A stretch of 64,000 nt of DNA from an uncultured Erysipelotrichaceae bacterium (GTDB lineage Bacteria; Bacillota_I; Bacilli_A; RFN20; CAG-826), in NCBI GenBank assembly GCA_902800025.1, contig CADCDA010000003.1, positions 13,154 through 77,153 of the forward strand, written 5' to 3'. Shown piece by piece: positions 1-25,051 of the stretch (position 1 is the stretch's first letter; every line of letters starts with the position of its first letter). The notes under the pieces were generated by a model. It was given only the letters and a program-made list of their open reading frames with translations. It was not told the DNA's origin and searched no databases. The translations under genes and the position numbers were made by a program.

Positions 1-294
1 GATTCAGAAGTATCTGTGCTGTTGTAATACTTAATTGTTATAACAACGTCTTCATAGAAGGCATAGCTTAAGCACCCAGCAAAATCGTATGTTGTTTGGT
101 TATAGCTTGTTGAAGAACTGATATCAAAATAAGTTTGATAATTTGAGGTGCTTAAAGAAACCTCATGTTTTTCCATGGCTTGGGTTGTCGGTGCTGGAGT
201 ATTATTACCGCCTTCGTTATTGTTGCTGCTGTTATTTGTACAGCCACCAAGACATAAAGCTAAAAATGGAAGTAAGAATAGCATCTTTTTCATA
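1..294 (-). CDS. lipoprotein, N-terminal part only (continues beyond window start)
   Basis: Minus-strand ATG at 294..292. The signal peptide plus lipobox reads MKKMLFLLPFLALCLGGC, followed by an Asn/Ser/Thr-rich region. The ORF runs off the window edge, so it is missing from the ORF track. Confidence 0.55.
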
Positions 295-326
295 ACGTTT
301 TTACCTGCTTTCAAACAATATTTTAC

Positions 327-632
327 TCAATAAGGTATCAGGTTTCCATCGCTATCGAATTGAGGCTCATTTTTCTTGAACCTTTGGTGCTGAGCATTAT
401 GGCAATCTTTGCAAAGGAGAATCAGGTTGCTTTTTCCAAGAGTAATTTCTGGGTTGTTTATGTTTTCAGGAGTTAGCTCAATGATGTGATGCACTTCTTC
501 CCCTATTCCACCACACTTTTCACAACGACCATTAACAGAAGCTATTTTCTCAGCTCTCGCTATCTGCCACTCAGCCGAGCGGTAAAATCGGTTTATTGCT
601 TTGCATTTATTTAGCATCAGATTAAGCCCCAT
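327..632 (-). CDS. HNH endonuclease
   Basis: Cys/His HNH motif CEKCG...VHHIIEL...N...LLCKDCHNAQH. It is small (101 aa) and phage-associated. Confidence 0.8.
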   Translation of the reverse strand: MGLNLMLNKCKAINRFYRSAEWQIARAEKIASVNGRCEKCGGIGEEVHHIIELTPENINNPEITLGKSNLILLCKDCHNAQHQRFKKNEPQFDSDGNLIPY

Positions 633-1405
633 TCTCCCAGCTTTTCAAAACCTCCGATGGAGTTAACATAGTTTCTAGCAATAAGAACAATCTCTCCATA
701 AGGCTTGCCATCAACAAATTCATCACCAATAGCACAGCTAATAGTGACAGGCTTTCCGGTTTCTTGAGCTTTTAAGAAGGCGTAAATATTGACTGAAACA
801 TCAGCTTTACTTAAATCCTTCCCGTGAATGCCTCCTCCAGTAATTCCGTCACCTAAGTCAGAACCAAGCTTTCTATTAGCGGCTCCAGTATCAACTTCTG
901 TGCCTCCGCTCCAATCACCAATCGGATTGACATCAGCTTCTGGATAGATCTCTTTTATACACTTGCCTGGAACATTGCTTTGACAGATAACAAGGCGGTT
1001 TGCTTTTTCGTCAAGTACGCACTTTCCATCGTATTTCCAGTGGCTATAAAGAGAACGGACTATCTTTGATAGCTTCTTTTGTTCTTCAGTAAGCGGACAA
1101 CCTTTGAAGATGCCATTATCACCACACCTGAACTTTCCAGCTTGGTTATCAGCTAAGTGAACATCTTGCGGATATTCCTTGTAGTCAACCTTGAGCTTTC
1201 CAGCGATGCGGTAAACAATCGCTTCCACTTCTTTCTTAGTTAAGTGTGCGGAAGTTTCAGTGATAATGTGAGCGTGTCCATGGCCTATTAATATTTCAAC
1301 CGCGATACGAGGTGCTCTTTCTTTAGAATAAGCTAGGTCTACGAGAGCTCCCGCTATTCTATCCGCTAATTTATCAGGGTGACTTGGATTTACTTTCTCA
1401 AACAT
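617..1405 (-). CDS. miniaturised S-adenosylmethionine synthetase (MetK)-like protein
   Basis: N-terminal SHPDKLADRIAGALVD matches the MetK GHPDKIADQISDAVLD. C-terminal TGGGIHGKDLSKADVS matches the MetK GGGAFSGKDPSKVDRS, and GDWSGGTEVDTGAANRK matches GDCGLTGRKIIVDTYGG. It is only 262 aa, so the central domain is reduced, and it carries extra Cys residues. Confidence 0.6.
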   Translation of the reverse strand: MFEKVNPSHPDKLADRIAGALVDLAYSKERAPRIAVEILIGHGHAHIITETSAHLTKKEVEAIVYRIAGKLKVDYKEYPQDVHLADNQAGKFRCGDNGIFKGCPLTEEQKKLSKIVRSLYSHWKYDGKCVLDEKANRLVICQSNVPGKCIKEIYPEADVNPIGDWSGGTEVDTGAANRKLGSDLGDGITGGGIHGKDLSKADVSVNIYAFLKAQETGKPVTISCAIGDEFVDGKPYGEIVLIARNYVNSIGGFEKLGEWGLI

Positions 1406-1558
1406 GATGTTCTCCTTTGGAGGCTCGCTCCTAATTTAAAAAATGTGTGAAATGCCTTTACTGATTACAAAGTAATGAGTAAAGAAGCAAAAAAGCACCG
1501 AAGTAGGTGCCTTATTGATAGACTCCCTTATTATTAATAGGGAGACTATCTAATAAAC

Positions 1559-1807
1559 CTATTCGATGTCCACTAACCCATGAAGGCTCCCTTCCTCATA
1601 GATTTCTTTGAGTTCATCTGAGGTGTAGATGAGAACCTGGGCTTCAGGCATCGTTTTTGGTTTGTCAGTAGCGAAGACTATGGAGTTATTCCAGAATCCA
1701 ACTGCTACTCTTGGTTTATTGAAGAGGAGCACCGTGCGGTTAAGCTTGATGCCCTTCTTTTCGGTAATCTTAACAATTATTTCTAATCCCATGATTATGC
1801 CTCCCAA
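1559..1807 (-). CDS. hypothetical small phage protein
   Basis: ORF lies in the operon context and overlaps its neighbours by a few nt. No recognisable motif. Confidence 0.3.
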   Translation of the reverse strand: MGGIIMGLEIIVKITEKKGIKLNRTVLLFNKPRVAVGFWNNSIVFATDKPKTMPEAQVLIYTSDELKEIYEEGSLHGLVDIE

Positions 1808-2235
1808 GGTTTATTAAGCCATTCAACAAGCTCTTTAACTGAGTCTGTTTCAAATAAGGCATTGTCTGAATGGAATTGACCATCTGGCGTTCTTCCATAA
1901 ACGGTATATTTCTTTTGGTTCCAGCAGCAGTCTAATTGAATGGTAAATTGAACCTCTCCAGTTTCTAAGTCCGCAAAGCGGAAGTCGTCATATAAAGGTC
2001 CATTCAATGGGCAATTGTTTTTGAACCAAACGTACCAGTTTTTGAAGTTTACTTTTCCACCTTCTCTGAGTTTAGAAATAATGTTGCCCATTCTTTTGGT
2101 TTTTCTACCTAAAGAGCTGTCTTTACAAAACCAGTCGTACCACCCTGCTTTAATTTGGGTTTTAACATCTTCTGAATCGAAGTCTCCAAGAATGAAGCTT
2201 CCTATCCAGGATTGTAAGCAAATTCTGTTTTCCAT
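1795..2235 (-). CDS. hypothetical phage protein (Trp/Cys-rich)
   Basis: 146-aa ORF that is translationally coupled to its neighbours. No recognisable motif. Confidence 0.45.
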   Translation of the reverse strand: MENRICLQSWIGSFILGDFDSEDVKTQIKAGWYDWFCKDSSLGRKTKRMGNIISKLREGGKVNFKNWYVWFKNNCPLNGPLYDDFRFADLETGEVQFTIQLDCCWNQKKYTVYGRTPDGQFHSDNALFETDSVKELVEWLNKPWEA

Positions 2236-2450
2236 TATCTTAACCCCCTCCAGAGTGGTCTGAGTTCAACAGGGGTATTCTCCCAATCTACCTCATCCAT
2301 TGCTAAGCCATCAGCGATGCAGCCTTTGATGCAGCTGATCCATTTGGCTTGGTAAGAATTGTCCTTATCCATTGTTTCGTCCGTAACCCCCGCTTCAAGG
2401 TATCTCTTGAGAAGGGTTTCTAAGCCTTTTTTGGTTTCAATATAGTGCAT
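2235..2450 (-). CDS. hypothetical small phage protein
   Basis: 71-aa ORF. Its start is preceded by a GGAGG-like sequence (aaaaggaggtcagaat ATG). Confidence 0.45.
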   Translation of the reverse strand: MHYIETKKGLETLLKRYLEAGVTDETMDKDNSYQAKWISCIKGCIADGLAMDEVDWENTPVELRPLWRGLR

Positions 2451-2574
2451 ATTCTGACCTCCTTTTGGTCATGTATATACTCTCGTAAACCTTTAGGTTT
2501 ATCAACATATATCGACACTATTTTGATACAATTTTTACCTATGCACGTAAAGGGAATAAAACTGGAAAAACTTG

Positions 2575-3801
2575 TCAATTAAGGAAGTCGCCATCTTCTA
2601 AAACGCGGTAATCGCTGATTTCAGAAAGAGGTGTTTTCTTGCCATCTCTCACGAGGTAGCAGTTATCGTAGCTTTGAACTAATCTGAGGTAGCGTTTAAC
2701 AATGACATCGACATACTTTTCATCAAGCTCAATGAGATAAGCTTTTCTTTTAAGTTGCTCCGCTGCCATCATGGTGCTACCACTACCACCAAATGGATCA
2801 AGAACGATCTCTCCTTTTCTGGAGGAGTTTTCGATGGCTTTACAAATAAGCTCAACAGGCTTCATAGTTGGATGAAGATCATTGTGCTTAGGCTTATCGA
2901 AATCCCAGCGAGTGGTTTGGGTTCTGTCGTTTGTGAAATAATGAGCAGCTCCCTCTTTCCAGCCGTAAGCGATAGGCTCTACTTGAGCGTGATAGTCTTT
3001 TCTTCCTAAAGGAAAGGTATCCTTAACCCAGCAGATAATCTGAGAAAACTTGAATCCCGCTTCTTTGATTGCAAGAAGGAAATTAAGTTCTTCAACATCG
3101 CTATGGAAAATATAGAAAGGACAGCCAGGCTTACACGCATTGAACGCATTCACAAAAGCTGCCTTTAAGAAAGAGAGGAACGATTCGCTATCCATTTTGT
3201 CGTTTTGAATCTTTCCCGCAGTTCCTTCATAGTCCACGTTATATGGCGGATCCGTAAAGAGGAGATCTACTTCTTTTCCTTCAATGAGGATATCGAAGTT
3301 TTCCTTTTTGGTTGAGTCTCCACATAAAAGCTTATGACCGTTTAATAAAAAGAGATCGCCTTTTTGAGAATATGGGTTCTCAGGAAGCTCGTCTTTTATC
3401 TCATCTTGTTCAGGTTCTTTTTCAAACTCTAAGTCGAAACCGAATTGCTCCATGTCCATCTCGATGCTGTCGAGTTCTTCCTGAAGTTTAGAGTCGATCC
3501 AGGTTGCGATAGAACTTACTTGATTATCAGCAAGCCTAAAGGCTTTGATTTGGTCTTCATCTAAATCATCCGCAATGATACAAGGTACTTTGCTAATGCC
3601 TAATTTGTGACAAGCTTTAATTCTGGTGTGTCCGCAAACGATCACGTTATCCTTATCAATAACAATAGGGATTTTGAAACCGAATTCTCTGATGGAGTTT
3701 GCTACTGCTTCCACCGCTTCATCGTTGTTTCTTGGATTGTTTTCATAAGCTTTGAGCTCTGAGACATCCTTAATCACTATCTTCGGAATCTTCACTTCCA
3801 T
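2575..3801 (-). CDS. ParB-like nuclease domain fused to N4/N6 DNA methyltransferase (DPPY)
   Basis: N-terminal ParB/Srx-like motif (GHTRIKA). Methyltransferase catalytic motif FTDPPYNVDY and SAM-binding LDPFGGSGST. The likely true start is the ATG at 3801 with a GGAGG 10 nt upstream; the ORF-track start at 3855 is read-through. Confidence 0.8.
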   Translation of the reverse strand: MEVKIPKIVIKDVSELKAYENNPRNNDEAVEAVANSIREFGFKIPIVIDKDNVIVCGHTRIKACHKLGISKVPCIIADDLDEDQIKAFRLADNQVSSIATWIDSKLQEELDSIEMDMEQFGFDLEFEKEPEQDEIKDELPENPYSQKGDLFLLNGHKLLCGDSTKKENFDILIEGKEVDLLFTDPPYNVDYEGTAGKIQNDKMDSESFLSFLKAAFVNAFNACKPGCPFYIFHSDVEELNFLLAIKEAGFKFSQIICWVKDTFPLGRKDYHAQVEPIAYGWKEGAAHYFTNDRTQTTRWDFDKPKHNDLHPTMKPVELICKAIENSSRKGEIVLDPFGGSGSTMMAAEQLKRKAYLIELDEKYVDVIVKRYLRLVQSYDNCYLVRDGKKTPLSEISDYRVLEDGDFLN

Positions 3802-4270
3802 TGAGCCATACCTCCCCGCCTGCTTCAATTTTTTTCTCAGCAAGTTCGTAGTCAAAAGATCTCTCGGAATACTCTCTTCCGAAGTTGTGACTTAGAAGAT
3901 AAACGATGGCTTTGTAGTCGCCAGGAATATGCTTCTTGTACTTGTGAGCTTTTTTCTTTTTGTTTGCTTTATTGGAGACACCCTCTTCTAAGTACTGGTC
4001 TTCTTCAGTTACTTCGTAACCTATAGCCTTTTTGTACATAGCTCCAATGAGATTTCTTTTGAGATCAAGTCTGGCATCTTGCTTTAGCCTTTCGATCTCT
4101 GGGTGTTTTCTTTTTAACTTTATGAAAGTGGCTTCGTCCATCTGTAGGCGTTCACAGATTTCCTTTTGAGTCACTAGCTTTGAGAAGCAGTCGAATAAGA
4201 AATCTCGAACCTCTGGCCACTTTCCGGTTTCGTTCCACATTTCAAAAAGGTCTTTTCTGGTTTTGCCCAT
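3770..4270 (-). CDS. hypothetical phage DNA-binding protein (HTH-like)
   Basis: Strong RBS AGGAGGAAG 5 nt upstream of ATG 4270 (MGKTRKDLFEMW...). The upstream extension to 4375 in the ORF track is probably not translated. It has an HTH-like segment, ICERLQMDEATF. Confidence 0.5.
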   Translation of the reverse strand: MGKTRKDLFEMWNETGKWPEVRDFLFDCFSKLVTQKEICERLQMDEATFIKLKRKHPEIERLKQDARLDLKRNLIGAMYKKAIGYEVTEEDQYLEEGVSNKANKKKKAHKYKKHIPGDYKAIVYLLSHNFGREYSERSFDYELAEKKIEAGGEVWLNGSEDSEDSD

Positions 4271-4393
4271 AAGACTTCCTCCTAAAATGTGTATGAAAAA
4301 ACCTCTCCTAAGAGAGGCCTTGTTTCTATAGCTTTCGCCTATTTTAACATTATCAGAAGAATGCTGCTTTTTCAATCTTCTAAAAGCTAGCTT

Positions 4394-4828
4394 TTACTGC
4401 CTTTTACTATCTTCTTTTATTTTTACCAGAGATAGAGCTTTTCGATGGAGCTTAAAGACATAAGATTCAGCGTATCCAAGCTTGTCCGCTACTTCATTCC
4501 AATCCCAGCAATTAACATAGCGATAAGTGAGGACTAGTTCCATCACCGCATCATCTACTGTAGCGATCGCTTCTTGGATCTCATCTTTTAGAGTGAGAAG
4601 TTCTTCAATCTTTTCATCGATTTGCTTTCTCTTCTTTTCAAGCTTATCAAGGTAACGTACAAATGGAGCTTTCAAGGAAGGTGACTTTTGCACTCTTGGT
4701 TCATCATAGTTGATGCCCTGTGTTCCATCCGCAAGAAGTTCCAAACAATGAAGTTCTTCTTTTAAGGAGTCCACTTTAAGCGATAAGTAATAGTATCTTG
4801 ATAAATATTCTTTTACGTCATCGTACAT
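4394..4828 (-). CDS. sigma-70 region-4-like phage transcriptional regulator (ArpU/RinA-like)
   Basis: C-terminal HTH WNEVADKLGYAESYVFKLHRKAL resembles sigma region 4. Confidence 0.5.
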   Translation of the reverse strand: MYDDVKEYLSRYYYLSLKVDSLKEELHCLELLADGTQGINYDEPRVQKSPSLKAPFVRYLDKLEKKRKQIDEKIEELLTLKDEIQEAIATVDDAVMELVLTYRYVNCWDWNEVADKLGYAESYVFKLHRKALSLVKIKEDSKRQ

Positions 4829-6197
4829 CTTCCTTTCCTCCTAACTTGACTTTGACTGCTTCAAAGAGAGCATTTTGCATTGTCTCTTTGCCTTCTAATA
4901 CTTTTAGTATTGTTTCATCAACAGTGTCAGCGGCAACTATATGAGTAACCACTACTGTTGAGGATTTTTGACCTTGGCGATAAAGCCTGGCATTTGTTTG
5001 CTGATAAAGTTCTAAAGACCAGGTAAGTCCATACCAGCAAATAGCACTTCCACCATCTTGAAGATTTAGTCCATGCCCTGCTGAAGCCGGATGAATTAAA
5101 CCAACCTCTAGCTCACCAGCATTCCACTTTCTAAAGCTTTCGGCAGTATCTAGTTCCATATAGTTGATCTTTAGCTCATCAAGCCTTCCCTTGATTCTTT
5201 CTAAATCAGATCGATACCAGTAAGCAACTAAGAGAGGCTGACCATTTTGGGCTTCAATAATGTCTTCCAGAGCATCAAGCTTCTTAGAATGGATGATTTC
5301 AGTTTTTCCATCTTCGGTATAAACCGCTCCGTTTGCATATTGAGTAAGCTTTCCAGTAAGAACCGCAGCATTAGCTACTGAGATGTCCTTATCTTCAAGC
5401 GAGAGAACTAGTTCTCTTCTGAAATCTTTATAGGCTTTCATCTCCTTGTCAGAGAGATAAACCTTGTAAGCATTTGAGATAAGCTTTGGCATCTTGATGT
5501 GATCAATGGCTCTCATTGAAATTGTGATATCGCTAATAGAGTCAAAGATTGCTTCTTTAGCTCCTGAGATTGGTCGATAAGAGAACACCACTTCTCCATT
5601 GTGCTTATCTGGTACAAAGTACATGTTGCGGTAATGAGTGATGAATCTTCCTAAGCGTTTCCCGTAATCAAGAAGTCTGAATTCAGCCCAGAGATCCATG
5701 AGCCCATTTCCTGCTGGAGTACCAGTTAATCCAACTATGCGATCAGAATTAGCTCTTACCGCTAATAAGGATTTGAACCTTTTAGCTTTATGGTTTTTGA
5801 AGCTAGAAAGTTCATCAATTACGATCATGTCGAAGTCGAACTTATATCCGCTTTCTTCTATGAGCCAGGAAACGTTTTCCCTATTGATAATGTAGATGTC
5901 AGCTTTGCTGTTTAAAGCTTTAAGTCTAGTTTTTAAGTCGCCAACCACTACTGAAGCTTTGAGAATCTTAAGATGATCCCACTTCTTTAATTCGTTAGGC
6001 CAGGTATCACGAGCAACACGCAAGGGTGCAATTATTAATACTTTCCTTATTTCAAAAGAATCAAAGAGAAGATCATTCAATGCAGAAAGAGTAATAACTG
6101 TCTTTCCTAAACCCATATCGAGCAAAACTGCAGAGATAGGATTTGCTTCTATGAAGTTAGTCGCGAACTTTTGATATTCATGAGCTACGTATTGCAT
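4818..6197 (-). CDS. SNF2-family (SF2) helicase, phage type
   Basis: Walker A LLDMGLGKTVI, DExx box VIDELSSF, motif III LTGTP and motif VI-like QGQKS. Confidence 0.85.
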   Translation of the reverse strand: MQYVAHEYQKFATNFIEANPISAVLLDMGLGKTVITLSALNDLLFDSFEIRKVLIIAPLRVARDTWPNELKKWDHLKILKASVVVGDLKTRLKALNSKADIYIINRENVSWLIEESGYKFDFDMIVIDELSSFKNHKAKRFKSLLAVRANSDRIVGLTGTPAGNGLMDLWAEFRLLDYGKRLGRFITHYRNMYFVPDKHNGEVVFSYRPISGAKEAIFDSISDITISMRAIDHIKMPKLISNAYKVYLSDKEMKAYKDFRRELVLSLEDKDISVANAAVLTGKLTQYANGAVYTEDGKTEIIHSKKLDALEDIIEAQNGQPLLVAYWYRSDLERIKGRLDELKINYMELDTAESFRKWNAGELEVGLIHPASAGHGLNLQDGGSAICWYGLTWSLELYQQTNARLYRQGQKSSTVVVTHIVAADTVDETILKVLEGKETMQNALFEAVKVKLGGKEDVR

Positions 6198-14477: not shown

Positions 14478-16244
14478 CTAATCTTGATAATTTTTCACGA
14501 AACCATAACGTCCGTTGTTAGGATCTTTCGTGAATTCTATTCTATTAACTCCTTCGTAATCTATGTCAGGAATATCGTTTTCGATTGCGATGATTTGCAT
14601 GTCCCTAGCGCACTCCTTCAAATAGGTGAATAAGGCTTTCTTTATTTGATCCGGAAGCTCTTCATTTCTCTTTTCTCTTAGTGACAAGATAGGAGAATCG
14701 ACTAGAAGCAATCCAGGCTTATAGTATCCTCTTTCTATCAAAACCTGCTGAAGAGCCAGTGCAAGTATCGTGTTGTAAAAACCCTTGAAGCCTTCGCCTT
14801 CATATTTCTTTTCGCTGCCGTTGATTTTAATATCAAAGTCACCATAGACGAAATCGATTTCATTTTCCCTGCCATTACATCTATCAATGCCGGCTTTCGC
14901 CTTAGTCACAAGGAAGCCAGAAAGAAGTGATTCAATGTATTCTCTAGGATTGTATTTCGTAATTTCGACCTTTATCTTCTCGACCTTCTTATGCTCTTCG
15001 ATTGCATCATTAAGGTTTTGGACGGCATTATTGTACTCAGCTTCGGAAACAACCGCGGTCTGATAGCTGTTAATCTTACTTTGAAGCTGCTTGACTAACG
15101 GCTTTAACTCATGATTGATCTCGGCATCAATAGCTTTCTTTTTGCCGACCAATTCGGAAACTTTCTCTTTTAGAGAAGCAAGCTCATCTTCGATAGCTTT
15201 TTTCGCTTCTTTCAAATCCTTTATTTGAGGTACAAGCTTCTTGAGCTCTGCTTCTGCAGCTTCTTCGCACGTCTCCTCTTCTTCTTTCTCAAGCTTGCCA
15301 TTGCAGAATGGACATCTTTGAGGCTCTTCGACATCCGAGGAATGAGCCTTTCCATCGACAATAAGCTCCATCCTTCTTAAATCCGATTCGTATTGGCTAA
15401 GGAGCGTGTTGTATTTTTCTATGAAGTTGTTAAGTTCAGCGATTCTATCGTTCAGGCCGATGATTTGGTTGGAGAGGCCTTTGCTCTCTTCGATCTTCTT
15501 GTTAAGCTCTTCATTCACTTCGTTGAGCCTTCTGATAAGCTCATCGATATCCTTTTTGAATTGCTCAGGCTCGCCAATCTTGAACCCTTCGTATGATTTC
15601 AACTTCTCAGTAAGCTTATCAACTTGCTCTTTCAGGTATTTTTCGAGCGCTTTCTTTCTGGCGGCTTTTTCAATAGGATTGCCTTCAGGATCTATGTGAT
15701 TGTCCCTGGACAAAAGGTAGATTAATGCCGATTTGAACGAAGTCGCGCTTGTGTTCTGCTCTGGGGCGAGGATACTTTCTTCTTTGCTTACATCGTTTTC
15801 TTTAATTACAAAAGTATGGGAGAACGTTCTGAAAGTTAGATTGTTCTTTTCCCAATTCTCGTTCTTAAGGATCTCCACTCTCTCGGTAAAGCCGATAAGC
15901 CTTAGCAATACATCGCTGTAGCTCATCCCATTTTCGTCTTTTTGCTTATATTCTCTGCATTCCAAACCTTGGATGTTCGTTTCTACAACCACAAGAGTCT
16001 TCTTGCCTATGGACCTAAGCAAAACAGCATATCCATCGTCGCATTCCACTCTCGCTTTGATCTCTTTTGCGTTGAAGTGCGGATTGACTTCTTTCTTTGC
16101 GCCGAAGATGAAATCGATGCAATCCAAAATGACGGACTTACCAGTATTAGATGGGCCATAAACAACGTTAAATCCATCGTCAAAGCTCACAGCAGACACT
16201 TCATCATTGTTCTGAATAAGCTGTATTTCTTTAATTCTTAACAT
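14478..16244 (-). CDS. SMC/Rad50-like ABC ATPase with central coiled coil and CxxC hook (LmuB / ABC-3C-ATPase-like)
   Basis: N-terminal MLRIKEIQLIQN...VVYGPSNTGKSVILDCIDFIFG is a Walker A. A long K/E/L-rich heptad region holds the CPFCNGK hook. The C-terminal part carries degenerate signature and Walker B sequences: EGEGFKGFYNTIL ... GLLLVDSPILSL ... IIAIEND. Confidence 0.7.
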   Translation of the reverse strand: MLRIKEIQLIQNNDEVSAVSFDDGFNVVYGPSNTGKSVILDCIDFIFGAKKEVNPHFNAKEIKARVECDDGYAVLLRSIGKKTLVVVETNIQGLECREYKQKDENGMSYSDVLLRLIGFTERVEILKNENWEKNNLTFRTFSHTFVIKENDVSKEESILAPEQNTSATSFKSALIYLLSRDNHIDPEGNPIEKAARKKALEKYLKEQVDKLTEKLKSYEGFKIGEPEQFKKDIDELIRRLNEVNEELNKKIEESKGLSNQIIGLNDRIAELNNFIEKYNTLLSQYESDLRRMELIVDGKAHSSDVEEPQRCPFCNGKLEKEEEETCEEAAEAELKKLVPQIKDLKEAKKAIEDELASLKEKVSELVGKKKAIDAEINHELKPLVKQLQSKINSYQTAVVSEAEYNNAVQNLNDAIEEHKKVEKIKVEITKYNPREYIESLLSGFLVTKAKAGIDRCNGRENEIDFVYGDFDIKINGSEKKYEGEGFKGFYNTILALALQQVLIERGYYKPGLLLVDSPILSLREKRNEELPDQIKKALFTYLKECARDMQIIAIENDIPDIDYEGVNRIEFTKDPNNGRYGFVKNYQD

Positions 16245-16686
16245 TGGTAAATCCTCCTCTTTTCACTAAGTCGGCCATGAATTTTCGAACGCTTTCATCT
16301 TTTTGAAGATCGTACTTCTCAAACGCTCCTTCTGCTGTCGACATATAATTTTCGCCGTACACATTGTCGAGCGAATCTATAAAGTTAATGCCATTATCAT
16401 TGATTTGGTACTTGAAACCATTATCTTGCGTCACATCGACAAGTCCTCTAGTAACCAATTCCTTAATCGCCATATCCACAAGTTCTTTTCTTGAGGCAAT
16501 TTCTCCAAACTTATAAGCACTATCGCCATGGAGATTGGACTCAGAAACCCCATAGTCCTTCCCATAACAGCAGATAAAGTCATAGCAGACAAATTGGTAT
16601 TTATCCATCTTGTCGAAAGGGCAATTGATGAGAAGCATCAATATCCTCAGTTGCATTTCAAATGGCGTGTTGAAAAATCTATTCAT
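16231..16686 (-). CDS. small hypothetical protein (candidate middle component / LmuC-like)
   Basis: The ATG at 16686 overlaps the upstream TAG (ATGAATAG), which indicates coupling. The 151-aa protein overlaps the ATPase start by 14 nt. No known motif. Confidence 0.5.
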   Translation of the reverse strand: MNRFFNTPFEMQLRILMLLINCPFDKMDKYQFVCYDFICCYGKDYGVSESNLHGDSAYKFGEIASRKELVDMAIKELVTRGLVDVTQDNGFKYQINDNGINFIDSLDNVYGENYMSTAEGAFEKYDLQKDESVRKFMADLVKRGGFTNVKN

Positions 16687-17695
16687 CCAGTTTCTCCTCC
16701 ACCCATTTGATTTTTTCATCATTAACTAGCATGTGGGTGATTCCTTTTCTCTCTTGGGTTTTGATCCATCCAGGGAGATGCATGAGAACGCTATTAAGAG
16801 GAATAAACGTCACCCTTTCCATTATTGCGTTCATTTTTTCTTTTCCAGAAGCATAGCTTTTGTTGCATGTGTCTTCTAGACCAGTGAAAATTTCGCTCTT
16901 TAGCTCATCGAAAAAATGATAGCCATAGGTTTCAGTGTCCCTAAGGCCAACTCTTATTGATTCGGCAGCGTAATAGTAGCCGCGTTGTTTGTTAAAATCA
17001 TCGAGACACGCGGTATCTGAAACAAGGTCGCTCTTCTTCACGAAGATAACATGTGCGGCCTCAGAGTAAACCTTTAGAAGCTCTTTGACGTAGTTTAATT
17101 CTTCGTCTTTAATATCATCTGGTGTCACGATGGCGACTGGGTGCTCCCTGCTATTGAGAATATCAATGATATCGTTCGTAGTGAGATTGTTATCGCCTAG
17201 TGATCTGTTTGCTTTTTTAGCCACAGGATTTGTTTTGTTGTCTGCGACAATCGCAAGCATGAAAACCTCTCTGAAGAAAAGCTTGTCTTCATTCCCTTTG
17301 TTGGCATTATAAAGCCCATTGACATAGCGCCTCTTTGCTATATCGATTTCTTCATCTGATTGCACCAATTCGTTTAATTCTTTGAAAATATATCGATTTT
17401 GCAGACTATTTGTCACGATTCTGTTCAAAAGCAACATTGAAATGCTTCCGTCTTTGTCGTGGCCGTTGAAGTATCTAGTCATTCCTGCCCTCAACAATGG
17501 ATAAACATCTTCGTTACCCTTATAAAGCGATCCGCACATTTTCGGAGTAAGACGGTATTGCTTATGTGATCTATCCCTGATATCCGCCTTTTTGATAGGA
17601 TCCTCCAATAAACCTTTCACCAAAAAAGTCATTTGCTTCTTTTTAGCAAATTTAGTGATTACCTTTAAAAATGATGAGAAGGTTAAGACGGCCAT
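16679..17695 (-). CDS. hypothetical 338-aa protein (candidate effector of the ATPase triad; no recognisable catalytic motif)
   Basis: The ATG at 17695 is 1 nt after the upstream TAA. No nuclease, SIR2, TIR, HEPN or Cap4 motif could be recognised by eye. Confidence 0.5.
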   Translation of the reverse strand: MAVLTFSSFLKVITKFAKKKQMTFLVKGLLEDPIKKADIRDRSHKQYRLTPKMCGSLYKGNEDVYPLLRAGMTRYFNGHDKDGSISMLLLNRIVTNSLQNRYIFKELNELVQSDEEIDIAKRRYVNGLYNANKGNEDKLFFREVFMLAIVADNKTNPVAKKANRSLGDNNLTTNDIIDILNSREHPVAIVTPDDIKDEELNYVKELLKVYSEAAHVIFVKKSDLVSDTACLDDFNKQRGYYYAAESIRVGLRDTETYGYHFFDELKSEIFTGLEDTCNKSYASGKEKMNAIMERVTFIPLNSVLMHLPGWIKTQERKGITHMLVNDEKIKWVEEKLDE

Positions 17696-17696
17696 A

Positions 17697-18392
17697 TTAT
17701 TCTTCGTTATCCTCTTTTTCCTTCTTGCGATAGACGTTTATTGGATTTCCGTCTTTATCTCTCCAGCAATTCCAGCCGTTGTCATTGTGACCTGAGATCA
17801 TTGCCGCGGCTTGGGAAACGGACGAGCACACAACATCTTCTTGTAAGATTGATCCTTTGAGCGGTAAGGACATCCTAAAAGGGACCCACGAGAATATTGA
17901 TGGAGTTTTTTCAGATAAAGGAGCACAAGTAGAATCTTTTTTAAGTGTTAGAACACCATTAGCAACGGCTAAAACACCAGAATAAGTATTTCTATCTGCC
18001 TTTGATTTAACTTGATAATAATACTCTCCATCAGGAAGCGATGAACTTTCTACCGCTTCTGTGGCTTGCTCAAACACCTCTTTCTTATCTTCTTCTGGAT
18101 ACACCACTCTTCCGTCGAGAGAAGAAAGGAGCTGACGAACCATATTGACGTCCAAAGAGAACATTTCGGTATCGCCTACTCTACTCTTGGAGAAAATTTC
18201 ATGAAGCAGAACTTCTTTTTCATCGTAGTTGTCAAGTTCTATTGCGAAGTTTCTTTTTAATCCGCTGACATTTCTATAACCATTACTTTCAAGGAATCTC
18301 ATTCTTTCCTCGAAATTGTCTGTTTTGGTTTTTCCTATTTTGACTAAGCCGCTAACAACGGTTGTCATCAAATAAATAATTCCTTTCGCCAT
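17697..18392 (-). CDS. T5orf172 (GIY-YIG superfamily) domain protein with C-terminal DUF4357-like region
   Basis: N-terminal GIIYLMTTVVSGLVKIGKTKTDNFEERMRFL matches the T5orf172 pattern (YxL..........KIGxT....R). A conserved E..LH (EVLLHEIF) follows. Confidence 0.55.
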   Translation of the reverse strand: MAKGIIYLMTTVVSGLVKIGKTKTDNFEERMRFLESNGYRNVSGLKRNFAIELDNYDEKEVLLHEIFSKSRVGDTEMFSLDVNMVRQLLSSLDGRVVYPEEDKKEVFEQATEAVESSSLPDGEYYYQVKSKADRNTYSGVLAVANGVLTLKKDSTCAPLSEKTPSIFSWVPFRMSLPLKGSILQEDVVCSSVSQAAAMISGHNDNGWNCWRDKDGNPINVYRKKEKEDNEE

Positions 18393-18406
18393 TCTCTATT
18401 CCTCCT

Positions 18407-21400
18407 TTATTTCAGCTTCCAATTAAAGAAGAAATCAGAAACAAACACATCTCTGTTGGCATACAAGATCTTGTTGATCTCTTTTTTGGAAACACCAAGA
18501 ATGTCTGCGATCTTTCCAGATTTCATTCCTTTGCCCGATTCTCTTAAAACTTTTACTATTTGATCTTTCAAAGAGAGAGGTTCTTCTTCAACTATCGCTT
18601 TTGGCTTAGCTACTACCTTTGGAGAGCTGAATTCAATAGCTTCATCTAGTAGCCTAGAGTCAAAACCAAATGCTTTGTATCCCTCAGAAACTCGTTCAAC
18701 ATATTCATCAGAAGGTCTTCCGAGTTTTCTATCCTCGTGCATAATGTAAACGAATGCTTCGATTTGGCTGAATGATCCATCATCAGCCTTAAGTTCAACT
18801 TTTATATCTTTTTTATAGTAGAAAGCAGGGTATCCTTCGTATCTATCTAGCGATGCTTCGTCATTTTCATTAACGACGAAAACACCAACAGGAACAGCAT
18901 ATCCGTTAGCCCTCTCGATTGTGAGGTAGTTTCCAGAGGAACTTCCCTTAAACATCAAGCGATAGTCATGGATAACTGATGTCCCTACTTTCCTTGCGGT
19001 TGGGCATCTGCTGGACATTTGTTCCAAATTGAGATTGCTGCCATAAGCCAAATAATAGCGAATTGGTTTCTGTGGTTTTTCTTCCACCACTAGTTCTGGT
19101 TCTTCTTCAGCAGGCTTTTCCACAGCATTTACAGGTTCCTCAACAGGTTTGCTTGAAACAAACGTTCTCGAAATTCTTGTTTGTTCTGGAGCTTCAGTAT
19201 GTGTTTCGCCTTCAATTCCAAATTCAAACCAATCAAAGCTGTTTCTATAGTTCTTTCTTACTTCTTCATTTGATAAATCTAAAGTAGATCCAATTGATTC
19301 GTTTTCAAAGAATTCTCTAATGAAGCCATTAAGGATATCTTCTTTGAAGATGTGATACTTGTTGAGAACCTCAAAGTCCTTCTTAGTGATACCGACAGCT
19401 TCTAAGAACCTATCCGGATCTGCATTCTTAAAGATTTCATCAAATGTCGTTTCTCTATAAACAGAAATATATAGGAATTCAAATAAACGAGCCAAGATGT
19501 GCTGCATGACGTTATCTGCATCTTGGATAGAAGTGTCATCGGCGTTTTTGATTACAGGTACCAAGGCTTTCTTTACTGCTTTTCTAAATGAATCACAGTA
19601 CCAGCGCTTGTAGATCTTTCCCCTATATTCCTGAGGAATGTTGTTTATGTCATTAAGATAGGCAACAACAAAGTTCTCTATCTTTTGCTTTGTTTCAGTT
19701 GTATATGTAATTTTTTCGCCGAAATGTTCTCTTACTTTGTCGACAAACTTAAGACCATCGGCTTTGCCGCATTGGAGCTTCTTAATAGGAGCGTTGACGC
19801 CTTGTTCATAGCCTTTCTTGAAGCCATTAATAAAGTATTTCTTATGGAGCTCATCTAAATCTGAAGGAATGTTTTCTTTGATGTGCTTTTCTTCGTTTGC
19901 ATCGTATTGTTCTTGGACTTCATTATCATCTAAATCAAGGTAAAGCTTACTATCAGCCATACCTAAGGCATAGCCTTTATCTCTTCCTTCTAAAGTAACC
20001 TTATCCTTAAAACTTGCATCATCTGGTTTAGGAGGGACGTCTCTATCCTTGGATTTTCCAAATTTTGCATGTGCAAAGACATGTTTAATAATGTCGCTAA
20101 CCTCCTCGTCATTGAGCATAGCGGCGATTGTATCTTCATCTTGGATCCAGGTCGTATTTTTGGTGTCCCTGATTTTCTTTGAAAGCGGCTTTCCTCTGCT
20201 ATCACCAAACTCAGCAAGCTTGAAGAATGTATCTTCGCCAATTGGGTGTTCCATGTCGCCATCCATGAAAATAGGTAAGTACTTAACGATCAGTCTAGCG
20301 ACTTGCATCTTCGTATATGCATTTTCCTTAGATGATTCTTCGGCATATTTTAAAAGAAGCGAAGCTGCTCTATCTATGTTGAAATCATATACATAACCAT
20401 CAGTTTTGAGGATCTTTCCGTTTTCAACCAATGGTGTCTGAATTCTAAATATCGCCTGGAAATATGATTCAGGGCTAGCTAAGTCCTTCAAAACGAAAAC
20501 ACTAAACCACTTCTTAACCGTGACACCTATAGTTAGCTTATTAACAGTGATTGAAATGCTGCCGATTTTACCGGTGTTTTCTCCAGCGGTCATGCTTTCA
20601 TTTAAAAATGTAAGGGCGTTTGTACCACTACCAACGTTCCTATCGGATAGATTGATGATCTGGTATCTAGAGAAATAATCATCTTCTTGAAGCAACTTTG
20701 CCATCGCATAGCATGAGTTGACAGTTGGCATGAGCCAAATCGTATGTTTGCTGTTAGGTGTAAGTTTTGGATTAGAATATGGGAAATTCTTTCCGTGCAT
20801 TGAAGCGCCTTTTATAATTTCAAGCCAAAGTTTAATCTCATCCTCATAAAGGAATTGGTATCCAAAGGCTTCGTCGTAATCTTTCCTCGTCTCAAAGAAT
20901 TTGTTCAAGGAAAAATAACTTCTTCCCAATACCTTATCATCCGAAACCACCGAATTGGCTAGCCCAGGGAACAAAGACTTCATGTCATAACCGAAGATGC
21001 TCATATCTGGGAATTGGGCATAATCTTTATTCGGGGTCCAATCGTCGTTCTCACTATTAGGATATTTCCTCTTTTGCTCATCAAAGTATGAATATGTGCT
21101 TGATGTTTTATCTGTAAATTCGCCTCTTGCTAAAGCTCTGAAAGGAGTTCCTGAGAGACAGATTGTTTTCTTTGTTTTGATTTCGAATTTCTTAACGACA
21201 TCCTTCGTGTCTTTGAGGTTTTTCTGATAGTCCTTATCAAGGTCCTCGAAAGTATCCTGAGTTCTAGCATTCCAGGCTCCAAAATGGTATTCATCGAGAA
21301 CCACCAAATCCCAATCAACATCTTGAAGCTTTTTGATTTTGTCTTTTGTTGTTTGGCTTTGGCTGTCTTTGCCTAAGTAGTTCTGCAACGATAAAAACAC

Positions 21401-22186
21401 AACGAAAGGCTCAGTCTTACCTTTTAAGGTAAAATCATTCCTTCTGATGTTGTCGTCGGTATAGTACTTATATACCTTATTTATATGAAGCAAGTCATCC
21501 TGCCATGATTTCTCAACTGCTGGGATGAATGTCAAAATTAAAATCTTATTGATATTGTTGTCTTCTGCAAACTTATAGGTCGTATAGCATTTTCCGAACC
21601 TCATTTTGCAGTTGAGAAGGAATCTTCCTCCTACTGGATGTTTGTCAAAATATGCAACTAAATCATCTATCGCTTTTTGCTGCTCAGCTCTAGGAGTATA
21701 AACAACTCTGCTGCTTCCGCTTTTTCTGATCTCGTTGAAAATAGAAATCAATTCATCAGGATGGATGTTGACAAACCACTCCTGCTCTTTTTCTTGAATT
21801 CCTGCGTACTTAGCTTTGATCTCGGCATGAACGCGATAATCTTTGAAGGATTCGCTATTGGTGTCTAAGCAGATGCCCCAATAGATGACTTCTCTGATGT
21901 CACCATAGCCTTTAGCAAATTGATCATCGGTCAAAGCTAATTCATGTTGTTGATCCTTAATTCTAGATTTGATTGCATGCCAAAAGGTCTCTCCCATTTT
22001 GCACTTGGTCATGCCTACCTTGACTCCATGATAAACGAAGTTAGGAAGTTGGTACATATAAATCAAGATCAAGTCTTGATCGGTTGTGTTTTTGTCATCC
22101 AGTTGGAAAAGAACGTCCTTTCCACTGAATCTGACTGTATCCTCAGAATTTATATTCTGGCCACGTTGGATTACTACTTCGCTCAT
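18407..22186 (-). CDS. multidomain 1259-aa protein: N-terminal T5orf172/GIY-YIG-like + SF2 (ResIII-type, DEYH) helicase + gamma-glutamylcyclotransferase (GGCT/AIG2)-like domain + C-terminal HTH
   Basis: N-terminal LILIYMYQLPNFVYHGVKVGMTK matches a T5orf172 core. Helicase motif I-like LNCKMRFGKCYT, motif II VVLDEYHF, motif III ICLSGTP and motif VI-like FQAIFRIQT. The GGCT-like segment is IRYYLAYGSNLNLEQM...IEAFVY. The C-terminal HTH is GKIADILGVSKKEINKIL. Confidence 0.7.
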   Translation of the reverse strand: MSEVVIQRGQNINSEDTVRFSGKDVLFQLDDKNTTDQDLILIYMYQLPNFVYHGVKVGMTKCKMGETFWHAIKSRIKDQQHELALTDDQFAKGYGDIREVIYWGICLDTNSESFKDYRVHAEIKAKYAGIQEKEQEWFVNIHPDELISIFNEIRKSGSSRVVYTPRAEQQKAIDDLVAYFDKHPVGGRFLLNCKMRFGKCYTTYKFAEDNNINKILILTFIPAVEKSWQDDLLHINKVYKYYTDDNIRRNDFTLKGKTEPFVVFLSLQNYLGKDSQSQTTKDKIKKLQDVDWDLVVLDEYHFGAWNARTQDTFEDLDKDYQKNLKDTKDVVKKFEIKTKKTICLSGTPFRALARGEFTDKTSSTYSYFDEQKRKYPNSENDDWTPNKDYAQFPDMSIFGYDMKSLFPGLANSVVSDDKVLGRSYFSLNKFFETRKDYDEAFGYQFLYEDEIKLWLEIIKGASMHGKNFPYSNPKLTPNSKHTIWLMPTVNSCYAMAKLLQEDDYFSRYQIINLSDRNVGSGTNALTFLNESMTAGENTGKIGSISITVNKLTIGVTVKKWFSVFVLKDLASPESYFQAIFRIQTPLVENGKILKTDGYVYDFNIDRAASLLLKYAEESSKENAYTKMQVARLIVKYLPIFMDGDMEHPIGEDTFFKLAEFGDSRGKPLSKKIRDTKNTTWIQDEDTIAAMLNDEEVSDIIKHVFAHAKFGKSKDRDVPPKPDDASFKDKVTLEGRDKGYALGMADSKLYLDLDDNEVQEQYDANEEKHIKENIPSDLDELHKKYFINGFKKGYEQGVNAPIKKLQCGKADGLKFVDKVREHFGEKITYTTETKQKIENFVVAYLNDINNIPQEYRGKIYKRWYCDSFRKAVKKALVPVIKNADDTSIQDADNVMQHILARLFEFLYISVYRETTFDEIFKNADPDRFLEAVGITKKDFEVLNKYHIFKEDILNGFIREFFENESIGSTLDLSNEEVRKNYRNSFDWFEFGIEGETHTEAPEQTRISRTFVSSKPVEEPVNAVEKPAEEEPELVVEEKPQKPIRYYLAYGSNLNLEQMSSRCPTARKVGTSVIHDYRLMFKGSSSGNYLTIERANGYAVPVGVFVVNENDEASLDRYEGYPAFYYKKDIKVELKADDGSFSQIEAFVYIMHEDRKLGRPSDEYVERVSEGYKAFGFDSRLLDEAIEFSSPKVVAKPKAIVEEEPLSLKDQIVKVLRESGKGMKSGKIADILGVSKKEINKILYANRDVFVSDFFFNWKLK

Positions 22187-22187
22187 A

Positions 22188-24974: not shown

Positions 24975-25051
<77 letters not shown>

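What the first reader, a model, noticed from the sequence alone, without database searches (positions are those of the whole stretch)
617..1405. Phage-module-encoded, shrunken MetK-like SAM synthetase next to an HNH endonuclease
The 262-aa product keeps the MetK N-terminal HPDK(I/L)AD motif and the C-terminal GGGxxxGKDxSKxDxS P-loop and flanking Gly-rich segment. It lacks about 120 aa of the central domain and gained several Cys.

It sits in the same leftward phage operon as a ParB-fused DNA methyltransferase. It could supply SAM for phage self-methylation, or manipulate host SAM-dependent defences, or, if inactive, act as a SAM or methionine binding decoy.
Basis: partly seen in the sequence, partly recalled or inferred. 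Interest (0 to 1): 0.6.

Follow-up and report, generated by a model that had tools for sequence, protein, structure and literature searches.

The report
Compact phage MetK-like SAM synthetase
A prophage gene encodes a two-thirds-size but apparently complete version of the enzyme that makes the methyl donor SAM, most likely to feed the phage's own DNA methylases; the family is very common, has been noted in the literature, and has not been tested biochemically as far as I could find.

Summary

It has not lost a domain. All three MAT domains are present in trimmed form, and the 122-aa deficit against E. coli MetK is spread over loops, helices and the C-terminal tail. All 16 catalytic or ligand-contacting MetK residues I checked have counterparts, with one conservative change (F230 to W165). 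The gene is under purifying selection (median dN/dS 0.13).

It belongs to a deeply diverged family of about 260 aa, roughly 25% identical to MetK, found in prophages of Bacillota and Gardnerella. In relatives it almost always abuts a ParB-fused DNA methyltransferase, between the small and large terminase genes.

My best explanation is an active, compact SAM synthetase that supplies phage DNA methylation before packaging (confidence 0.62; activity untested). The HNH neighbour looks like packaging-module furniture rather than a functional partner.

The family is annotated as SAM synthetase by IMG and in one phage GenBank record. A truncated prophage MetK was described in Streptococcus agalactiae in 2021. 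Moderate interest.

The parts
617..1405 (-). Compact MetK-like (methionine adenosyltransferase-fold) gene, 262 aa
1370..1381 (-). Codons for H9-P10-D11-K12, equivalent to E. coli MetK His14/Asp16/Lys17
   Evidence: MAFFT alignment with E. coli MetK. Each residue is kept in 32-33 of 35 family sequences (the query plus 34 50%-identity representatives).
794..838 (-). Codons for G190-S204, GGGIHGKDLSKADVS, the triphosphate loop (K196, K200, D202 = MetK K265, K269, D271)
1412..1418 (-). Shine-Dalgarno AAAGGAG, 6 nt before the ATG
   Evidence: Read directly from the sequence.
1492..1513 (-). Terminator-like GC hairpin plus T-run inside a strongly structured 153-nt intergenic region (1406-1558)
   Evidence: Terminator scan. 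RNA fold z-score -4.19. No Rfam family, so no SAM riboswitch detected.
327..632 (-). HNH endonuclease. It probably starts at the ATG overlapping the MetK-like stop (TGATG, about position 617), giving 96 aa as called in identical contigs
   Evidence: Pfam HNH E 5e-07. PHROG HNH families, plus a terminase-small-subunit-labelled family. Gene call in L002.
2575..3855 (-). ParB_N-fused N6/N4 DNA methyltransferase with DPPY and FGGSGST motifs present; the presumed SAM consumer
   Evidence: Pfam N6_N4_Mtase E 3.9e-33 and ParB_N E 3.3e-07. PHROG_498 E 2.2e-145. Motifs read from the translation.
3770..4375 (-). Small-terminase-like gene; with TerL beyond the window end it brackets the methylase / MetK-like block
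   Evidence: PHROG_309 'terminase small subunit' E 1.4e-15. TerL lies about 3.3 kb past the MetK-like gene on contigs that carry the identical protein.
4394..4828 (-). DUF1492 / sigma-70-region-4-like regulator that precedes the packaging block in relatives; a late-gene role is my inference
   Evidence: Pfam DUF1492. PHROG_36 transcriptional regulator. The homologue in L009 also hits Sigma70_r4.

Best explanation
The gene encodes a catalytically competent, miniaturised methionine adenosyltransferase (SAM synthetase). It keeps the whole three-domain MAT fold and the active-site residues that, in canonical MetK, sit at a dimer interface. What has been trimmed is loops, helix ends and the C-terminal tail.

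It lies in the block between the small and large terminase genes, together with the phage's ParB-fused N6/N4 DNA methyltransferase. Its likely job is to raise SAM supply, from host ATP and methionine, while many phage genome copies are methylated before packaging. Progeny DNA would then enter the next host already protected from restriction.

Shown here: homology, fold, residue conservation, purifying selection and gene linkage.

Inferred: dimer formation, SAM synthesis itself, late-lytic timing, and the benefit to methylation.

For: **Active site.** Every MetK residue I checked has a counterpart:
- H14 to H9, D16 to D11, K17 to K12, E42 to E37, E55 to E50
- Q98 to Q80, D118 to D96, D163 to D126, K165 to K128, F230 to W165
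- D238 to D172, R244 to R178, K245 to K179, K265 to K196, K269 to K200, D271 to D202

Each is kept in 30-35 of 35 family sequences (the query plus 34 50%-identity representatives). Two hydrophobic residues aligned with E. coli Ile102/Ile302, which I recall as lining the S-methyl pocket, are also kept: L84 and I226, each in 44 of 47 sequences.

**Selection.** Median pairwise dN/dS is 0.13 over 838 pairs. Identity stays at 59-71% across phages of Oscillospiraceae, Streptococcus, Terrisporobacter, Anaeroplasmataceae and Gardnerella.

**Linkage.**
- In 68 IMG/VR loci with enough downstream sequence, 55 have a DNA methyltransferase gene starting within 120 nt of the MetK-like stop. Another 10 have one within 3 kb.
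- Start and stop overlap with the ParB-methylase gene in L009-L013.
- The same TerS / MetK-like / methylase order occurs in Gardnerella phage vB_Gva_AB1 and Terrisporobacter phage TPDSL_ph1. In Javan117 a methylase sits immediately upstream instead and no TerS is annotated.

**Displacement.** Streptococcus phage phi1207.3 has the same type of replication module. It carries a canonical 353-aa three-domain MetK in a comparable position: downstream of the SNF2 helicase gene, beside an HNH and near a ParB-methylase plus a C5 methylase, though upstream of its TerS. Both proteins fall in PHROG_1569.

**Consumer.** The window's methylase has intact DPPY and FGGSGST motifs.
Against: - No enzymatic data exist for any member that I could find.
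- The protein scores 39.6 bits against the NCBIfam metK equivalog cut-off of 309.4. Pfam's middle-domain model does not detect it, and the C-domain model detects only 24 of 47 family members.
- It is only about 25% identical to E. coli MetK or to the phage canonical MetK. Altered substrate or product cannot be excluded.
- I could not model oligomeric state.
- In this window the gene is not adjacent to the methylase. Three small ORFs and a terminator-like hairpin lie between them.
- The 80 loci used for linkage counts are the closest relatives and are not phylogenetically independent.
- A few divergent family members have lost HPDK and other catalytic residues, so not all members need be enzymes.
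Confidence: 0.62

Rival explanations
1. It is an active MAT-fold enzyme with altered chemistry. It might use another nucleotide or a methionine analogue, or make a SAM-like cofactor used by the neighbouring methyltransferases for a non-methyl DNA modification.
For: It is about 25% identical to MetK and has family-specific invariant motifs: CGDNGIF, CQS, W165 in place of Phe230, GGGLHGKD one residue shorter than GGGAFSGKD, and C-terminal GGFEKFAEWGL. Some relatives carry a PAPS-reductase-like gene between the two methylases.
Against: Residues that hold the amino-acid moiety (E50, Q80, D172, K200), the S-methyl pocket (L84, I226), the adenine stack (W165) and the triphosphate are all of the canonical kind. 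A canonical MetK occupies a comparable slot in phi1207.3.
Confidence: 0.12
2. It is a non-catalytic or dominant-negative MetK mimic. It would bind host MetK, SAM or methionine to lower or sense SAM and so disarm SAM-dependent defences such as type I/III restriction or BREX, the end that T3 SAM lyase achieves by other means.
For: The precedent is that phage T3 both cleaves SAM and inhibits MetK to escape BREX and type I R-M (bioRxiv 10.1101/2023.02.27.530186, listed). MAT active sites lie at subunit interfaces, so mixed oligomers are conceivable (my knowledge). The adjacent host island carries an Eco57I-type methylase system.
Against: A binder would not need every Mg/K/triphosphate/catalytic residue under purifying selection. 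Lowering SAM would starve the phage's own methylases, which are its most constant neighbours. At about 25% identity to canonical MetK, a conserved hetero-interface across hosts from Actinomycetota to Bacillota is unlikely.
Confidence: 0.08
3. It is a lysogenic-conversion gene that changes host physiology (SAM-dependent AI-2/polyamine pathways, aggregation, biofilm) rather than serving phage DNA methylation.
For: PMC8223999 reports that deleting a truncated prophage metK and its neighbours in S. agalactiae 12/111phiA reduced aggregation, glycocalyx and biofilm, with partial plasmid complementation.
Against: That study had incomplete complementation and secondary mutations. Here the gene sits between terS and terL in the packaging block, which I would expect to be silent in a lysogen. 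This explanation would also still require SAM synthetase activity.
Confidence: 0.1

Closest known systems
Canonical bacterial MetK / methionine adenosyltransferase (EC 2.5.1.6; NCBIfam TIGR01034; Pfam PF00438+PF02772+PF02773; e.g. E. coli MetK, PDB 1fug/7ll3)
   Different: It is 262 aa against 384 aa and about 25% identical. It scores far below the equivalog cut-off (39.6 against 309.4 bits), and the middle-domain HMM is silent. GAGDQG becomes CGDNG and Phe230 becomes Trp. The C-terminal tail is replaced by a short GGFEKxxEWG helix. It is encoded in a phage packaging block and has no SAM riboswitch.
Canonical-type phage MetK (e.g. Streptococcus phage phi1207.3 Orf29, 353 aa; 137 phage records)
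   Same: Both are phage-borne and lie beside an HNH gene and near a ParB-methylase, in phages with the same PolA / VapE-type primase / VRR-NUC / SNF2 replication module. Both fall in PHROG_1569.
   Different: phi1207.3 Orf29 is 50% identical to E. coli MetK and hits all three Pfam domains. The window protein is about 25% identical to it and 91 aa shorter. In phi1207.3 the MetK/methylase block lies upstream of TerS rather than between TerS and TerL.
Truncated prophage 'MetK' of S. agalactiae 12/111phiA (PMC8223999)
   Same: It is described as a prophage MetK with a 135-aa truncation relative to E. coli, separated by one nucleotide from an endonuclease gene. The similar prophages named there include S. 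constellatus and S. equi, species whose Javan phages carry 61-64% identical homologues of the window protein.
   Different: I could not compare the sequences directly, so membership in the same family is probable rather than verified. That paper interprets the gene as a host-benefit gene. It gives no enzymology.
Phage T3 SAM lyase (SAMase)
   Same: It is also a phage protein acting on the host SAM economy, in the context of restriction and BREX.
   Different: The fold is unrelated and the effect is opposite: it destroys SAM and inhibits MetK. T3 carries no linked methylases of this kind (bioRxiv 10.1101/2023.02.27.530186, seen; PDB 8bb1).

Membership tests
MetK / methionine adenosyltransferase superfamily (fold level) | Three pseudo-symmetric beta-alpha-beta-beta-alpha-beta domains | tested here: met
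MetK / methionine adenosyltransferase superfamily (fold level) | Catalytic and ligand residues: His14, Asp16, Lys17, Glu42, Glu55, Gln98, Asp118, Asp163, Lys165, Phe230, Asp238, Arg244, Lys245, Lys265, Lys269, Asp271 (E. coli numbering, recalled from the MetK structural literature) | tested here: met
   All have counterparts in the query, with Phe230 replaced by Trp. Each is kept in 30-35 of 35 family sequences.
MetK / methionine adenosyltransferase superfamily (fold level) | Signature motifs GHPDK, GAGDQG and GGGAFSGKDxxKVDRS | tested here: inconclusive
   HPDK is present. GAGDQG is replaced by CGDNG, with Asp kept. The P-loop is present as GGGIHGKDLSKADVS, one residue shorter and with Arg replaced by Val.
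NCBIfam TIGR01034 metK (equivalog, i.e. same function assumed) | Whole-protein score at or above the curated cut-off of 309.4 bits | tested here: not met
   39.6 bits. It should therefore not be filed as an equivalog of MetK by HMM criteria.
Pfam three-domain MetK architecture (PF00438 N, PF02772 M, PF02773 C) | All three domain models hit above the gathering threshold | tested here: not met
   Only the N domain hits in the query. Across 47 family members, N hits 47, C hits 24 and M hits none at E up to 1.
Methionine adenosyltransferase (enzyme activity EC 2.5.1.6) | Forms SAM from ATP and L-methionine and hydrolyses tripolyphosphate; homodimer with active sites at the interface | not testable with these tools
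No multimer prediction was available. I found no published enzymology.
PHROG_1569 (phage MetK-like proteins, listed as 'unknown function') | Significant full-length match to the family profile | tested here: met
   E 2.6e-60, residues 1-247 on profile positions 4-310 of 346. The canonical phi1207.3 MetK also matches, at E 5.7e-172.
Compact (~260 aa) prophage MetK-like family | Length about 260 aa with the motifs MFEKVNPxHPDKxADRIAGA, CGDNGIF, CQS, NPxGxWxGG, NRKLGSD, GGGLHGKDLSKADVS and GGFEKFAEWGL; located next to a DNA methylase in the packaging block | tested here: met
   Alignments A1 and A2. More than 8000 90%-identity clusters. 205 50%-identity representatives at E<1e-30. Synteny.

The most novel reading that the evidence does not exclude
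The roughly 260-aa family would be the smallest natural SAM synthetase, about two-thirds the size of the MATs with solved structures. It would work as a dedicated on-site SAM generator, physically or translationally coupled to the ParB-fused methyltransferase and possibly the packaging machinery. Alternatively it would make a non-canonical SAM-like cofactor for phage DNA modification.
Probability: 0.12. Interest if true: 0.65.

Novelty: new member of a known kind. Interest (0 to 1): 0.4.

Why it matters
If active, this family defines a minimal MAT scaffold: 262 aa, with no solved structure of this compact type found in the PDB. That is useful for enzyme engineering and for SAM-analogue biocatalysis.

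It would also show that temperate phages of gut, rumen and oral Bacillota routinely bring their own methyl-donor supply together with their anti-restriction methylases.

The family is very abundant, with more than 8000 90%-identity clusters, yet PHROGs lists it as 'unknown function'. A single enzymatic test would therefore upgrade a large amount of phage annotation. It would also clarify what 'metK' calls as auxiliary metabolic genes in viromes really represent.

Tried and rejected
- **First AF2 run.** A shallow 19-sequence alignment gave pLDDT 59.8 and was discarded. A 47-sequence alignment that added diverse 50%-identity representatives gave 96.4.
- **SAM riboswitch or other known RNA upstream of the gene.** The Rfam scan of 1-5000 at E up to 1 found nothing.
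- **BFVD viral structure library.** No match at E<=0.001, so this fold appears absent from that set.
- **Rosetta-stone fusions with methyltransferases.** None appeared among the long family representatives I checked. P0121 (582 aa) is instead interrupted inside the P-loop by a roughly 320-aa insert. P0191 is a chimera with ClpP/capsid sequence.
- **Host identification by exact 41-mer.** No hit. A UvrC protein search then placed the host among uncultured rumen Bacilli / Erysipelotrichaceae-like MAGs, at most 87% identical.
- **Canonical metK elsewhere in the window.** None found by tblastn.
- **Literature on enzymology of a truncated, compact or phage MetK.** Eight full-text searches returned annotation-level mentions and one genetic study only.
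- **'Loss of one domain'.** Rejected on the model and the gap distribution.
- **'HNH is a functional partner'.** Rejected because in most relatives the HNH lies upstream of TerS, separated from the MetK-like gene.

Full report
**1. The observation**

The ORF at 617..1405 (minus strand) is a clean 262-aa ATG-started frame. An AAAGGAG Shine-Dalgarno sits 6 nt upstream.

It contains HPDKLAD at residues 9-15 and GGGIHGKDLSKADVS at residues 190-204. The homology evidence is:
- Pfam finds only the MetK N-terminal domain (E 4.6e-10).
- PHROGs places it in phrog_1569, labelled 'unknown function' (E 2.6e-60).
- NCBIfam's metK equivalog model gives 39.6 bits against a cut-off of 309.4.
- A sequence search of the PDB finds MetK only, apart from one weak tail hit (4hhu, E 0.025). 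Two matched stretches cover the N-terminal motif and the P-loop region.

The MetK relationship is therefore real, but the protein is not a standard MetK.

**2. Anatomy**

A first AlphaFold run on a shallow alignment was poor (pLDDT 59.8). I then added diverse family representatives from an exhaustive HMMER search. That search found 1206 representatives at E<=1e-3 and 205 at E<1e-30. With them the model reached pLDDT 96.4 and pTM 0.93.

The secondary-structure string shows the helix and strand elements of all three MAT domains. In a MAFFT alignment with E. coli MetK, the missing residues are scattered. Nineteen fall in the N region, 48 in the middle region, 20 in the C core and 42 at the C-terminal tail. 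The protein is a trimmed complete MAT. It has not lost its central domain.

**3. Active site**

I checked 16 residues that the MetK structural literature assigns to catalysis or ligand binding (recalled from memory, E. coli numbering). All have a counterpart in the query, with one conservative change, F230 to W165:
- H14 to H9, D16 to D11, K17 to K12
- E42 to E37, E55 to E50, Q98 to Q80
- D118 to D96, D163 to D126, K165 to K128
- F230 to W165, D238 to D172
- R244 to R178, K245 to K179
- K265 to K196, K269 to K200, D271 to D202

Each is kept in 30-35 of 35 family sequences, meaning the query plus 34 50%-identity representatives. Two hydrophobic positions aligned with E. coli Ile102 and Ile302, which I recall as lining the methionine S-methyl pocket, are also kept. 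L84 and I226 are each present in 44 of 47 sequences.

Of the six cysteines, three are family-conserved (C94, C141, C224). They form no metal-site-like motif.

Pairwise dN/dS among relatives has a median of 0.13 over 838 pairs.

A few divergent representatives have lost HPDK and other catalytic residues. The window's protein has not.

**4. The family**

The family is only about 25% identical both to E. coli MetK and to the canonical phage MetK of phi1207.3. Those two are 50% identical to each other. It is therefore an old, distinct clade and not a recent truncation.

Longer members (about 320-415 aa) carry lineage-specific insertions rather than the missing MetK segments.

In the GenBank phage collection the family occurs in 25 records. 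They include Streptococcus Javan prophages, Oscillospiraceae, Acutalibacteraceae, Ruminococcus and Anaeroplasmataceae phages, Terrisporobacter phage TPDSL_ph1 and Gardnerella phage vB_Gva_AB1. Most are annotated 'hypothetical protein'. The Gardnerella record is annotated 'S-adenosylmethionine synthetase'. IMG also names cluster members S-adenosylmethionine synthetase.

**5. Context**

The window's left 14 kb is the replication-to-packaging part of a siphovirus-type prophage. The genes, all leftward, are:
- DUF2800 nuclease
- Enc34-type ssDNA-binding protein
- family A polymerase
- VapE-type primase
- VRR-NUC
- SNF2 helicase
- DUF1492 / sigma-like regulator
- a small-terminase-like gene
- the ParB-fused N6/N4 methylase
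- three small ORFs
- a structured intergenic region with a terminator-like hairpin
- the MetK-like gene
- an HNH gene overlapping its stop codon

Contigs that carry the identical protein continue with small unknown genes, an LRR protein, TerL, portal, protease and capsid.

In 80 IMG/VR loci the commonest order is regulator, HNH, TerS, MetK-like, ParB-methylase, sometimes a PAPS-reductase-like gene, and usually a C5 methylase; TerL follows where the contig reaches that far. Of 68 loci with enough downstream sequence:
- 55 have a methylase gene starting within 120 nt of the MetK-like stop
- 10 more have one within 3 kb

In L009-L013 the two genes share start and stop positions. The TerS / MetK-like / methylase order recurs in phages of Actinomycetota and Clostridia. 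In the Streptococcus phage Javan117 a methylase sits immediately upstream of the MetK-like gene instead.

The constant partner is thus the methylase, not the HNH. In most relatives the HNH lies before TerS, as expected for a packaging-associated HNH. These loci are close relatives, so the counts are descriptive and not independent.

Streptococcus phage phi1207.3 has the same replication module. It carries a canonical 353-aa MetK downstream of its SNF2 helicase gene, beside an HNH and near a ParB-methylase and a C5 methylase. There the block lies upstream of TerS rather than between the terminase genes. Canonical MetK occurs in 137 phage records. Two distant homologues in comparable positions of related phages argue for the same job.

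**6. Mechanism**

I consider the most likely reading to be an active compact SAM synthetase. It would top up SAM while the phage methylases modify many genome copies ahead of packaging. I give this confidence 0.62, and the activity itself is untested.

My own rough reasoning is that methylating a few hundred copies of a roughly 50-kb genome needs a number of methyl groups comparable to the cellular SAM pool. This is an inference, not a measurement.

The rivals are:
- altered chemistry or cofactor (0.12)
- a lysogenic-conversion role, as proposed for S. agalactiae 12/111phiA (PMC8223999) (0.10)
- a non-catalytic MetK mimic or SAM-lowering decoy (0.08)

The decoy reading conflicts with the preserved catalytic set, and with the constant company of SAM-consuming enzymes.

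**7. Comparison and novelty**

At fold and active-site level the protein passes as a MAT. It fails the HMM-based definitions of MetK. It should be described as a MetK-like compact MAT and not filed as the metK equivalog.

A truncated prophage MetK next to an endonuclease was described in 2021 (PMC8223999). The phi1207.3 paper suggested in 2014 that its MetK serves the phage methylase (PMC4260502). I found no enzymology and no solved structure of the compact type.

The window's gene is therefore a new member of a known but uncharacterised kind. Interest is moderate.

Noticed in passing
window 1406-1558 (- strand): The 153-nt intergenic region upstream of the MetK-like gene folds unusually well (MFE -43.7 kcal/mol, z -4.19, three hairpins including a terminator-like one at 1492-1513). 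It matches no Rfam family. It may be a transcription boundary or an attenuator for the MetK-like/HNH unit.
   Followed up: partly
P0121 (582-aa homologue from the representative search): This MetK-like protein is split inside the triphosphate loop (GGGL | CLSGDSEY ... FITGN | CGKDLSK) by a roughly 320-aa insert. Its ends look intein-like (Cys start, Asn-Cys end). No Pfam intein or Hint domain was detected, so this is unproven. Inteins typically sit in functionally critical sites.
   Followed up: partly
window 14478-17695 (- strand): Three genes form an ABC-3C type candidate defence system: an AAA/SMC-like ATPase, Middle Component 2 (PF20288) and CTD6 (PF20282). They lie next to the prophage's early region.
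   Followed up: no
window 17697-23855 (- strand): A DUF4357/RAMA-like protein, a 1259-aa protein with a C-terminal GGACT (gamma-glutamyl cyclotransferase-like) domain, and an Eco57I-type methylase. This may be a second restriction or defence module. The large protein is otherwise unannotated.
   Followed up: no
window 24975-25051 (- strand): tRNA-Arg (TCT) lies at the boundary between the mobile/defence region and the host genes uvrC, mutS2 and RNase HIII. GC content also drops from about 0.40 to about 0.33 here. It is a likely integration site.
   Followed up: no
window 3770-4375 and 2575-3855 (- strand): The small-terminase-like gene (PHROG_309) overlaps the start of the ParB-methylase gene. 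The methylase / MetK-like block is thus inserted between terS and terL, an arrangement shared with phages of several phyla.
   Followed up: yes
window 1-292 (- strand), continuing off the window; L002 11113-13897: After the HNH gene, a lipoprotein-like ORF begins (signal peptide plus Cys, MKKMLFLLPFLALCLGGC...). In identical contigs it is followed by other small ORFs and a 492-aa LRR_5 protein before TerL. These are candidate moron genes inside the packaging block.
   Followed up: no
L009-L013 8030-8839 and many IMG/VR loci: A PAPS-reductase-family gene is wedged between the ParB-methylase and a roughly 730-aa C5 methylase, directly downstream of the MetK-like gene. Its role in this methylation cluster is unknown.
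   Followed up: no
P0133, P0217, P0168, P0192 (divergent family representatives): These members have lost HPDK (STPNK, ANINK, HVDK) or several other catalytic residues. They may be pseudoenzymes within the family.
   Followed up: no
window 25140-64000: Host genes are most similar (UvrC at most 87%) to uncultured rumen 'Bacilli bacterium' / Erysipelotrichaceae MAGs. The host species itself is not in the GTDB-representative genome set searched.
   Followed up: partly
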